DNA from: a virus
Taxonomy: Duplodnaviria; Caudoviricetes
Length of the DNA stretch: 64,000 nt
Virus record (IMG/VR): IMGVR_UViG_3300006151_000005
Coordinates: 41,516-105,515 of that record
Direction: 5' to 3' (one strand)
Made by a program: the position numbers and the translations under genes. Below are positions 44,693 through 45,615 of this stretch, one piece after another (the first letter of the stretch is position 1; each line of letters opens with the position of its first letter). The notes under the pieces were generated by a model, which saw only the letters and a list, made by a program, of their open reading frames with translations, was not told where the DNA came from and ran no database searches.

Positions 44693-45475
44693 ATGAGAAT
44701 CAAGAAGCAAAAGTCGTTCAAGAACGGTACGGTGTACTGCCTTGAGCTGGAGGACGGAATGTTAGTAGAAACAACCGACACCTTTCTGCCATTCTACACC
44801 AAAGACGCAATCGGTCGCAAGCAGAATTTTCTTGACAACAGTCAGCTCGGCAGTCGTGCGGAACGCTGGATGATAGGCGTATCCACGATGAGCGGATGCC
44901 CGGTTCACTGCAAATTCTGCGCAACCGGCAACATGAAGCGTTGGCGCAATCTTACGGCTGACGAAATTGTCGGTCAGGTGGAATTTGCCATCGCACAGGC
45001 AGGATTCAACCCGGCAGATGCCCGCGAGTTCAAAATCAACTACACGCGCATGGGTGAGCCTTTCTTGAACATCGACGCAGTTAAAGAAGCCATTGCCCGC
45101 ATCACGGAAAAATATCCGAACACACATCACTACGTTTCAACCATCGGCATCGCCGGCAGCGATTTCTCTTTTGTCAAGGGGAACGTGACGCTCCAGATAA
45201 GTCTGCATAGCTTTGACGATGACAAGCGTAACTGGCTTATCCCTTACCCCAAGAAGATGACCATCGAAGAGCTGGGGCGCATACGCACGGAAAGCAACCT
45301 TAAAACGACCATCAACCTTACACTCGTTGACGAGTCGGATTTCGATGCTGAAAAGCCGGCGAAGTATTTTGACAAGGATTATTTCTTTGTCAAGCTATCG
45401 CCCATCAATCCCAACAGCATATCGGAAAAGAACAATCTCGGTAACGGTGTTATCGAGGGCGTGAACATTGTATAA
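44693..45475 (+). CDS. RlmN/Cfr-like radical SAM enzyme lacking the C-terminal segment
   Basis: GVSTMSGCPVHCKFCATG, RNLTADEIVGQV, MGEPFLN, QISLHS. Confidence 0.85.
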   Translation: MRIKKQKSFKNGTVYCLELEDGMLVETTDTFLPFYTKDAIGRKQNFLDNSQLGSRAERWMIGVSTMSGCPVHCKFCATGNMKRWRNLTADEIVGQVEFAIAQAGFNPADAREFKINYTRMGEPFLNIDAVKEAIARITEKYPNTHHYVSTIGIAGSDFSFVKGNVTLQISLHSFDDDKRNWLIPYPKKMTIEELGRIRTESNLKTTINLTLVDESDFDAEKPAKYFDKDYFFVKLSPINPNSISEKNNLGNGVIEGVNIV

Positions 45476-45495
45476 CCACTTAACACAACAACCAC

Positions 45496-45615
45496 ATGGA
45501 AGCAATCAAGAAACAGCTTGAATCTATGGGTTACGATTATGCAGTCGCTATCGCAACCAAGTCGGAAATTGAAAACGGAGCCGCCTGCGGACAACTCGCA
45601 ATCATCACTGACTAA
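45496..45615 (+). CDS. 39-aa peptide carrying the RlmN C-terminal AACGQL motif (not in ORF track)
   Basis: MEAIKKQLESMGYDYAVAIATKSEIENGAACGQLAIITD; own A/C-rich leader; hairpin follows. Confidence 0.75.
   Translation: MEAIKKQLESMGYDYAVAIATKSEIENGAACGQLAIITD

What the first reader, a model, noticed from the sequence alone, without database searches (positions are those of the whole stretch)
44693..45615. Split RlmN-like enzyme: methyl-carrier Cys on a separate 39-aa peptide, resolving Cys absent
Seen: a 260-aa RlmN/Cfr-like ORF stops before the C-terminal motif. After a 20-nt leader, in a different frame, a peptide ends ...GAACGQLAIITD. The enzyme has RWMIGVSTMSGC where RlmN has RATLCVSSQVGC. 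Established: in E. coli RlmN, C355 (AACGQL) is methylated and forms a covalent methylene adduct with RNA adenosine, C118 resolves it, and C118 mutants stay crosslinked to RNA. Inference: this pair could use the peptide as a consumable co-substrate and attach it covalently to rRNA, tRNA or another target (host takeover), or act as a RiPP-like peptide modifier.
Basis: partly seen in the sequence, partly recalled or inferred. Interest (0 to 1): 0.82.

Follow-up and report, generated by a model that had tools for sequence, protein, structure and literature searches.

The report
Two-piece phage RlmN-like radical SAM enzyme
This gut phage makes a relative of the RNA-methylating enzyme RlmN as two proteins, a 260-residue body lacking RlmN's second catalytic cysteine and a 39-residue peptide carrying the key one; many unrelated phages keep this layout under strong selection, I found no paper on it, and its target is unknown.

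Summary
ORF 44693-45475 is a radical SAM protein whose model matches E. coli RlmN residues 80-334 (Z 23). It has Gly where RlmN has the resolving Cys118. ORF 45496-45615 encodes a 39-aa peptide ending GAACGQLAIITD, and a profile comparison places it on the C-terminal helix-strand-Cys loop of fused RlmN-like proteins (E 1.8e-6).

This is not decay:
- About 100 related viral loci and 8 cultured phages (Bacteroides, Moorella, Vibrio, Pectobacterium and Yersinia hosts) keep the peptide as a separate gene.
- All 119 close homologues with a cluster motif have Gly and none is fused at the C-terminus.
- The peptide gene has dN/dS of about 0.05.

New details:
- Two lineages carry the module fused at the enzyme's N-terminus.
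- One Vibrio phage has two tandem modules, both under selection.
- One homologue carries an intein.

A sister clade is fused yet also lacks Cys118, so chemistry without that Cys seems viable. The target is unknown.

The scan has found this system before on other genomes, with the same verdict. I found no paper on it.

The parts
44693..45475 (+). Gene for the 260-aa RlmN/Cfr-like radical SAM core. It corresponds to E. coli RlmN residues 80-334, so it has neither the N-terminal domain nor the C-terminal Cys loop.
44876..44878 (+). Codon for Gly62, at the position of RlmN's resolving Cys118. It is invariant in this clade.
   Evidence: HMMER alignment to 6fz6. Invariant in alignments A1 and A3. 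Gly in all 119 close homologues that have a cluster motif.
44897..44920 (+). CxxxCxxC motif (Cys69, Cys73, Cys76) that binds the radical SAM [4Fe-4S] cluster. These are the only cysteines conserved in the enzyme.
   Evidence: Sequence. Invariant columns. Cys16 is not conserved.
45476..45495 (+). 20-nt spacer between the two genes. It holds a second stop codon (TAA at 45481) in the peptide's frame.
   Evidence: The spacer is 17-20 nt in 73 of 78 related loci where both genes were located.
45496..45615 (+). Gene for the 39-aa acidic peptide. By the model of the N-fused homologue it has a helix (about 2-10), a strand (GYDYAVAIAT) and a loop with the AACGQL motif.
   Evidence: dN/dS about 0.05 over 28 distinct sequences. 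Alignment A2. hhalign to the C-terminus of fused relatives, E 1.8e-6.
45586..45588 (+). Codon for Cys31 of the peptide, the counterpart of RlmN's methyl-carrier Cys355.
   Evidence: Invariant in A2 and in every locus examined.

Best explanation
This is an obligate two-protein class-A (RlmN/Cfr-type) radical SAM enzyme carried as a self-contained two-gene module by many phages.

Shown here:
- The 260-aa protein is the RlmN core with its cluster and SAM motifs.
- The 39-aa peptide is the homologue of RlmN's C-terminal helix-strand-loop and carries the AACGQL cysteine.
- Both genes are under purifying selection and travel together.
- No cysteine other than the three cluster ligands is conserved in the enzyme.

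Inferred mechanism:
1. The peptide docks on the core by adding its strand to the core's sheet.
2. Cys31 is S-methylated by cluster-bound SAM.
3. A second SAM gives 5'-deoxyadenosyl radical, which makes the Cys-S-CH2 radical.
4. This radical attacks an sp2 carbon of an adenine-type substrate.

My committed reading is that the thioether intermediate is then resolved without an enzyme cysteine, by another base or by a thiol acting in trans. The net result would be C-methylation, with the peptide acting as an exchangeable, reusable carrier subunit.

The substrate is probably not the RlmN site in 23S rRNA. An adenine nucleotide-type small molecule or another RNA is more likely, but the target is unknown.

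I put about 0.9 on 'functional two-piece enzyme with the Cys supplied in trans'. I put 0.45 on the whole statement, including catalytic turnover.
For: The split is conserved:
- All 80 IMG/VR loci at 81-99% identity have a separate peptide ORF.
- 17 of 18 further loci, at 41-46% identity to the Moorella-phage-type query P0134, also have one.
- L089, at 37% identity, has one too.
- All 8 cultured phages with a full-length clade-1 enzyme carry the peptide.
- The peptide gene can lie 17-20 nt away, or 0.3-1.6 kb away with other genes between. It is therefore an independent cistron.
- 195 peptide clusters of 24-77 aa exist. Only 6 sporadic longer forms were found, none with a known domain.

Selection:
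- dN/dS is about 0.05, and codons 12-34 are almost invariant at mean dS 1.3.
- One homologue has an intein inserted in the cluster motif. I read that as a sign of a functional gene.

Docking:
- In the natural N-terminally fused homologue P0129, the AF2 model (pLDDT 92.3, pTM 0.91) gives the module's helix and strand pLDDT of about 95.
- The module's single strand is in DSSP state E, meaning it is paired.

Fold and homology.

Chemistry without Cys118 looks viable in the superfamily. A well-supported sister clade of about 300-aa fused enzymes keeps an 'SNCGQ' Cys but has I/V/N/M at position 118.

The established roles of Cys355 and Cys118 are taken from PMC9692996.
Against: - In RlmN and Cfr the resolving Cys is reported as indispensable, and C118A stays crosslinked (PMC9692996). 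No replacement base was identified here.
- If turnover were ordinary there is no obvious reason to keep the pieces apart, yet no C-terminal re-fusion was seen despite 17-20-nt spacers.
- Nothing was measured: no binding, methylation or substrate.
- The complex could not be predicted because the tool was lost and then unavailable.
- The docking inference rests on one AF2 model of a homologue, without coordinates to inspect.
Confidence: 0.45

Rival explanations
1. Consumable peptide. With no resolving Cys, the Cys31-S-CH2 adduct is the end product. Each peptide would be used once and end up covalently tied to an adenine in RNA, DNA or a nucleotide. Splitting would spare the iron-sulfur enzyme, which then reloads with a fresh peptide.
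For: - Gly at position 118 is invariant, and no other Cys is conserved.
- RlmN C118A accumulates exactly such an adduct.
- The separate cistron is strictly kept and never re-fused at the C-terminus.
- Vibrio phage D479 encodes two tandem modules that are 81% identical in DNA but differ in 1 of 32 residues. The duplication is therefore old and both copies are under selection, as expected if the number of modules matters.
Against: - Two lineages tether the module to the enzyme's N-terminus (P0129, P0155). There the whole enzyme would be consumed.
- The fused sister clade also lacks Cys118.
- The peptides are uniformly acidic (net -2 to -9), which suits a nucleic-acid adduct poorly.
- No adduct-processing gene is conserved nearby.
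Confidence: 0.27
2. RiPP-like system. The peptide is the substrate and final product. Its helix-strand part would act as a built-in recognition leader, and the Cys loop would be modified, for example by S-methylation or a methylene bridge, to give a phage effector.
For: - The system is a small conserved peptide next to a radical SAM enzyme.
- One phage has a two-module precursor.
- Some lineages add a second radical SAM enzyme, a small methyltransferase or a Cys-rich small ORF beside the pair (L080-L085, L086, P0155).
Against: - Pfam and NCBIfam matched no family beyond Radical_SAM and Fer4_12, so no SPASM-type or leader-recognition family was reported.
- The most conserved part of the peptide is the motif RlmN uses as a catalytic carrier. 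The variable part is the tail.
- No protease or exporter is conserved nearby.
- The extra genes are sporadic.
Confidence: 0.12
3. Recent decay or an assembly artefact: a broken RlmN gene with no function in two pieces.
For: None beyond the bare fact of two ORFs in different frames.
Against: - Two stop codons separate the frames.
- The same layout occurs in about 100 independent viral loci and 8 cultured phage genomes infecting hosts of three phyla.
- dN/dS of the peptide gene is about 0.05.
- The same DNA is held by metagenome runs of several studies.
Confidence: 0.01

Closest known systems
RlmN (23S rRNA A2503 / tRNA A37 C2-methyl synthase; TIGR00048; PDB 3RF9/3RFA, 4PL1/4PL2, 5HR6/5HR7, 6FZ6) and Cfr (PDB 9P0P): the class-A radical SAM methylases
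   Same: - Same core fold (Z 21-23 to RlmN, 16 to Cfr).
- CxxxCxxC cluster motif.
- GEP, STxG, SLH and NP motifs.
- AACGQL methyl-carrier motif.

   Different: - The N-terminal domain (RlmN 1-79) is absent.
- The Cys355 segment is a separate gene product.
- Cys118 is replaced by an invariant Gly.
- The tail after the Cys is acidic rather than basic or neutral.
- HMM scores are far below the family cutoffs (78 against 290 bits).
- The substrate is unknown.
RlmN C118A/S and Cfr C105 mutants (laboratory variants trapped as covalent protein-RNA adducts; PMC9692996, PDB 5HR7)
   Same: The methyl-carrier Cys is present and the resolving Cys is absent.
   Different: Here this state is natural, ancient and selected. 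The Cys is on a detachable 39-aa peptide.
Uncharacterised fused 'SNCGQ' clade of about 300-aa RlmN-like proteins
   Same: - Short, with no N-terminal domain.
- No Cys at position 118.
- Carrier Cys retained.

   Different: - The Cys module is fused at the usual C-terminus.
- Position 118 is I/V/N/M, not Gly.
- Some members are fused or adjacent to isochorismatase, ADP-ribosylglycohydrolase or a disulfide-oxidoreductase domain. None of these is seen next to the split clade.
GrcA/YfiD 'spare part' protein of pyruvate formate-lyase (from my own knowledge, not tested here)
   Same: A small separate protein homologous to the C-terminal catalytic segment of a radical enzyme supplies the key residue in trans.
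   Different: GrcA repairs an oxygen-cleaved full-length enzyme. Here the large partner is never made with its own segment, and the chemistry is unrelated.

Membership tests
Radical SAM superfamily | CxxxCxxC cluster motif and a partial TIM-barrel core | tested here: met
   PF04055 at 2.4e-9, 38 bits against a cutoff of 29.5. The model matches many radical SAM structures.
RlmN/Cfr (class-A radical SAM methylases) | Core fold specifically RlmN-like | tested here: met
   Z 23, rmsd 2.7 A, 232 residues aligned to E. coli RlmN 80-334. Cfr scores Z 16. The next family, TYW1, scores Z 12.7.
RlmN/Cfr (class-A radical SAM methylases) | Score above the curated equivalog cutoffs (TIGR00048, NF008396, TIGR04432) | tested here: not met
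   78.4 bits against 290, 57 against 633, and 50.3 against 550.
RlmN/Cfr (class-A radical SAM methylases) | Methyl-carrier Cys (RlmN C355 / Cfr C338) in the same polypeptide | tested here: not met
   The enzyme ends at ...EGVNIV, which corresponds to RlmN residue 334. The motif lies on the separate 39-aa ORF.
RlmN/Cfr (class-A radical SAM methylases) | Resolving Cys (RlmN C118 / Cfr C105) | tested here: not met
   Gly62 is at that position and is invariant in the clade. No other Cys is conserved.
RlmN | N-terminal helical domain (residues 1-79) | tested here: not met
   Model residue 1 aligns to RlmN residue 80. The TIGR00048 match starts at profile position 81.
RlmN/Cfr (class-A radical SAM methylases) | Methylation of A2503 in 23S rRNA or A37 in tRNA | not testable with these tools
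   This needs biochemistry or nucleoside mass spectrometry.
RiPP radical SAM maturases | Peptide-recognition (RRE) or SPASM/twitch auxiliary-cluster domain, together with a precursor peptide | tested here: inconclusive
   Pfam and NCBIfam matched no family beyond Radical_SAM and Fer4_12 in the core, apart from weak NCBIfam hits to maturase models over the cluster region only. A short adjacent peptide is present. RRE-like elements can escape HMMs.

The most novel reading that the evidence does not exclude
The pair is a natural peptide-to-adenine ligase. Each acidic 39-aa peptide would be spent once and end up thioether-linked through a methylene bridge to C2 or C8 of an adenine. The adenine could be in a host RNA or in an adenine-containing nucleotide such as an NAD-derived or cyclic-oligoadenylate immune signal. 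This would act as a covalent trap or inactivator during infection.
Probability: 0.25. Interest if true: 0.92.

Novelty: new variant of a known kind. Interest (0 to 1): 0.72.

Why it matters
Both catalytic cysteines are considered essential in the only two characterised class-A radical SAM methylases, RlmN and Cfr. Here a large clade of phage genes has removed one and moved the other onto a 39-residue peptide, and has kept that state under strong selection in phages of at least three bacterial phyla.

Either outcome would be new:
- Class-A chemistry can be completed without the resolving cysteine, which bears on the debated last steps of the RlmN/Cfr mechanism.
- The stalled thioether adduct is itself the product, which would be a new kind of peptide-nucleobase conjugation used in infection.

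The system is small (two genes, about 300 codons). It is also present in cultured phages (Kehishuvirus 'tikkala', Moorella MTATph1, Vibrio D479, Pectobacterium Arno18 and Wc4, Yersinia P778), so it can be tested directly.

Tried and rejected
- **Complex prediction.** Complex prediction for enzyme plus peptide was submitted with 4Fe-4S and SAM.
- **Peptide profile against PDB sequences.** hmmsearch of A2 gave nothing significant (best E 0.42, unrelated). The profile is too short, and the profile-profile comparison was needed instead.
- **DNA search of the phage collection.** Megablast with 44000-46000 gave no match.
- **Remote loci.** The search for related loci with P0165 returned no confirmed locus.
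- **Conserved partner gene.** All-against-all comparison of ORFs in 29 diverse loci found none beyond the enzyme. The peptides were mostly under that comparison's 40-aa floor.
- **Second radical SAM genes.** Those near some loci are not one family. The window's (47744-48538) against L086's gave no similarity. The window's against L080's gave E 0.12. The window's occurs only in its closest relatives.
- **Peptide fused to another domain.** Only 6 sporadic read-through or extension forms were found.
- **Promoter and terminator scan.** Counts around the pair (4 promoter-like against 3.4, 5 terminator-like against 2.3) did not clearly exceed the shuffles, and none of the sites bears on the pair.
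- **RNA evidence.** Only contigs were available. One contig from an RNA library spans 44538-45706 with no indel or joint at the junction. This shows neither transcription nor co-transcription.
- **Phage identity.** I first took the phage for crAss-like because the best cultured hit for the enzyme is a Kehishuvirus at 69.5%. The sliding-clamp gene has no crAss-like relatives, so I dropped that label.
- **Literature.** Three full-text searches found no paper on a split or phage RlmN-like enzyme.

Full report
**1. What is in the sequence**

They are 20 nt apart and in different frames. A TAA at 45473 closes the ORF1 frame and a TAA at 45481 lies upstream in the ORF2 frame. One indel therefore could not join them.

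ORF1 is a radical SAM protein:
- Pfam PF04055, 2.4e-9.
- Its best named relatives are RlmN and Cfr, but it scores far below their curated cutoffs (TIGR00048: 78 bits against 290).
- By sequence it matches solved RlmN structures (6fz6 at 9e-16, E. coli RlmN at about 1e-11) and Cfr.
- An AF2 model built on 26 homologues (pLDDT 90.7, pTM 0.89) aligns over its whole length to E. coli RlmN residues 80-334 (Z 23, rmsd 2.7 A, 232 residues). Cfr scores Z 16 and the next family, TYW1, scores 12.7.

The protein is therefore the RlmN core without the N-terminal domain (1-79) and without the C-terminal stretch that carries Cys355.

In the alignment to 6fz6, Gly62 lies over the cysteine that corresponds to RlmN Cys118.

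The 39-aa ORF ends GAACGQLAIITD. A DNA pattern coding AACGQ occurs once in the window, against 0.03 expected. A profile of 22 such peptides aligns to the C-terminal helix-strand-GGCGQL segment of 15 fused RlmN-like proteins (hhalign probability 89.7%, E 1.8e-6, with a 2-residue insertion). A plain HMM search of the short profile against PDB sequences found nothing.

**2. The split is old, widespread and selected**

*Cultured phages.* Eight phages in the GenBank phage collection have a full-length relative of the enzyme (36-70% identity): Kehishuvirus 'tikkala', Moorella MTATph1, Vibrio D479, four Pectobacterium phages and Yersinia P778. A tblastn search with the peptide finds exactly these eight. 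The layouts differ:
- In the Kehishuvirus and Moorella phages the peptide gene follows directly.
- In the Pectobacterium and Yersinia phages a roughly 90-aa gene lies between the two.
- In Vibrio D479 the ORF carries two tandem modules.

*Uncultured phages.*
- In IMG/VR, all 80 loci at 81-99% identity have the separate peptide. Two carry the variant AACSQL.
- The spacer is 17-20 nt in 73 loci and 1171 nt in five, where two genes are inserted.
- Of 18 further loci, at 41-46% identity to the Moorella-phage-type query P0134, 17 have the peptide, adjacent or 0.3-1.6 kb downstream.
- A metagenomic relative at 37% identity has it too.

*Close homologues.* Of the 120 closest protein clusters, all 119 with a cluster motif have Gly at the Cys118 position and none has a C-terminal Cys motif. 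The longer ones are only extended at the N-terminus, and all end at ...EGVN(L/I)V.

*The peptide family.* It comprises 195 clusters of 24-77 aa. Longer forms are six sporadic read-through or gene-calling extensions.

*Selection.* Across 28 distinct nucleotide versions, the peptide gene has mean dS 1.3 and dN/dS of about 0.05. Codons 12-34 (GYDYAVAIATKSEIENGAACGQL) are almost invariant despite many synonymous changes.

*Conserved residues.* Across six very distant enzymes, 'MIGVS' is invariant and only the three cluster cysteines are conserved. Cys16 of the window's protein is not.

**3. Details that bear on the mechanism**

(a) *Module fused at the N-terminus.* Two representative clusters carry the Cys module at the N-terminus of the enzyme. 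P0129 has module, linker of about 20 aa, then core. P0155 has module, core, then a second radical SAM domain. This is a permuted arrangement, not the ancestral C-terminal one. An AF2 model of P0129 (pLDDT 92.3, pTM 0.91) gives the module's helix (2-10) and single strand (14-18) a pLDDT of about 95. The strand is in a paired state, and the Cys loop is less certain at about 77. This fits docking by strand addition, but I could not inspect contacts.

(b) *Tandem modules in Vibrio D479.* The two modules are 81% identical in DNA over a 96-nt period yet differ in one of 32 residues. The duplication is therefore old and both copies are kept by selection.

(c) *An intein.* One homologue (P0127) has an intein with a LAGLIDADG domain inserted inside the CxxxCxxC motif. 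I read that as a sign of a functional gene.

(d) *Four groups on the tree.* A tree of 85 representatives (quick IQ-TREE, SH-aLRT support), read with the motif table, shows:
- The split clade, mostly Gly at position 118. Its backbone is weakly resolved: the window sits in a well-supported subgroup of 11 rows (SH-aLRT 98), and the Moorella-type P0134 falls outside the main group.
- A clade that looks cellular in the two contexts examined, with Gly at 118 and no Cys loop at all. No peptide is nearby in those two contexts.
- A well-supported clade of about 300-aa fused proteins with I/V/N/M at position 118 and a C-terminal 'SNCGQ'.
- The canonical forms with Cys118 and a fused GGCGQL or AACGQL.

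So the loss of Cys118 is not confined to split enzymes.

(e) *Neighbours and fusions in the other clades.* Fusion partners and neighbours of the fused short forms point to nucleotide or NAD metabolism. They include isochorismatase, NUDIX, an HD phosphohydrolase, a disulfide oxidoreductase and ADP-ribosylglycohydrolase. None of these is next to the split clade, where no neighbour other than the peptide is conserved.

(f) *Charge.* All the peptides are acidic (net -2 to -9, pI 4.1-4.8). After the Cys comes a hydrophobic (S/A)II stretch and then an acidic tail. The canonical proteins have basic or neutral tails.

**4. How it most likely works**

The established chemistry is taken from PMC9692996:
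- RlmN Cys355 takes a methyl group from SAM.
- A 5'-deoxyadenosyl radical turns this into a Cys-S-CH2 radical, which adds to C2 of adenine.
- Cys118 is indispensable for resolving the protein-RNA crosslink.
- The C118A mutant stays crosslinked.

By homology I infer that the phage peptide docks on the core and carries the methyl group on Cys31.

What happens after the addition step is open. I commit, at 0.45, to resolution without an enzyme cysteine and net methyl transfer, with the peptide as an exchangeable carrier. My reasons are the fused clade that lacks Cys118 and the N-terminally tethered forms, which make an obligatorily spent, released peptide less likely.

The consumable-peptide reading (0.27) is favoured by three things: the invariant Gly, the strict avoidance of C-terminal re-fusion, and the selected two-module peptide. 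A RiPP-like reading (0.12) fits the sporadic extra radical SAM, methyltransferase and small-ORF neighbours, but no leader-recognition or auxiliary-cluster family was matched and no processing gene is conserved nearby. Decay is excluded (0.01).

The target is unknown. The missing RNA-binding domain and the acidic peptide argue weakly against RlmN's own rRNA and tRNA sites.

**5. Context and provenance**

- The window is an uncultured phage. The same DNA is held by mouse-gut metagenome runs from several studies.
- Its IMG/VR relatives include contigs of 93-97 kb.
- It is not demonstrably crAss-like. The enzyme's best cultured hit is a Kehishuvirus, but the sliding-clamp gene has unrelated best hits.
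- A contig from an RNA library spans both genes without any indel or joint. This is weak evidence and proves no transcript.

**6. Novelty**

Three full-text searches found no paper on a split or phage RlmN-like system.

The scan itself has met this system several times on other genomes. Earlier follow-up agents reached the same 'two-piece phage RlmN-like enzyme, target unknown' verdict. My results agree with theirs. As far as the short notes I saw show, they add:
- the permuted N-terminal fusions and their model;
- the synonymous divergence of the tandem modules;
- the intein;
- the four-clade picture.

I class it as a new variant of a known kind.

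Noticed in passing
window 47744-48538 (+): A second, unrelated radical SAM gene (264 aa; PF04055 at 2.1e-10; weak hits to maturase-type models) lies 2.1 kb downstream of the peptide. It is present only in the closest relatives (L008-L012), so it is not a general partner of the pair.
   Followed up: partly
L080-L085, about 3780-4965 (and L092): In some relatives two genes sit between the enzyme and the peptide. One is a 255-aa radical SAM protein with weak MoaA/viperin-like hits. 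The other is a 147-aa ORF that looks like a small class I methyltransferase by eye but matched no NCBIfam family. L092 has a 36%-identical copy of the second gene.
   Followed up: partly
L086 1005-1879; P0155 residues 370-695: In the lineage where the Cys module is fused at the N-terminus, a small NrdG-like radical SAM follows the enzyme (L086) or is fused to it (P0155). The two are homologous (E 2e-5). In L086 a 51-aa Cys-rich ORF comes next.
   Followed up: partly
P0127 (601 aa, metagenomic homologue): This clade-1 enzyme is interrupted by an intein (Hint plus LAGLIDADG) inserted inside the CxxxCxxC cluster motif.
   Followed up: partly
P0188, P0197, P0202 and others; L108, L109: A clade of about 270-aa RlmN-like proteins looks cellular in the two contexts examined. 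Members have Gly at position 118 and end after the 'GFxYAxR' strand with no Cys loop at all. No peptide was found nearby in those two contexts, where the neighbours include pyruvate kinase and GreA.
   Followed up: partly
L110 (P0232) and P0201, P0214, P0204, P0223: Other short RlmN-like forms are fused or adjacent to nucleotide-related domains. The fused clade without Cys118 pairs with isochorismatase, ADP-ribosylglycohydrolase and a pyridine-nucleotide disulfide oxidoreductase. Canonical short forms with Cys118 pair with NUDIX and an HD/dGTPase-like domain. This hints at nucleotide or NAD-type substrates in those clades.
   Followed up: partly
window 44104-44673 (+): Directly upstream of the enzyme is an RNase T/DnaQ-like 3'-5' exonuclease (PF00929 at 4.5e-16; phrog_192). 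It is not conserved next to the pair in other phages.
   Followed up: partly
window 40661-41980 (-); 23296-23369 and 27969-28039 (+): The phage encodes a formyltransferase-like protein (phrog_9240 at 1e-23) and two tRNA-like genes. One has anticodon AAC. ARAGORN could not give the other a normal anticodon.
   Followed up: no
P0283 (64 aa, metagenomic): This peptide variant has a partial internal repeat (AVAIATKSEIENG occurs twice, but only the second copy carries the Cys). It may be an assembly artefact or a partial duplication.
   Followed up: no
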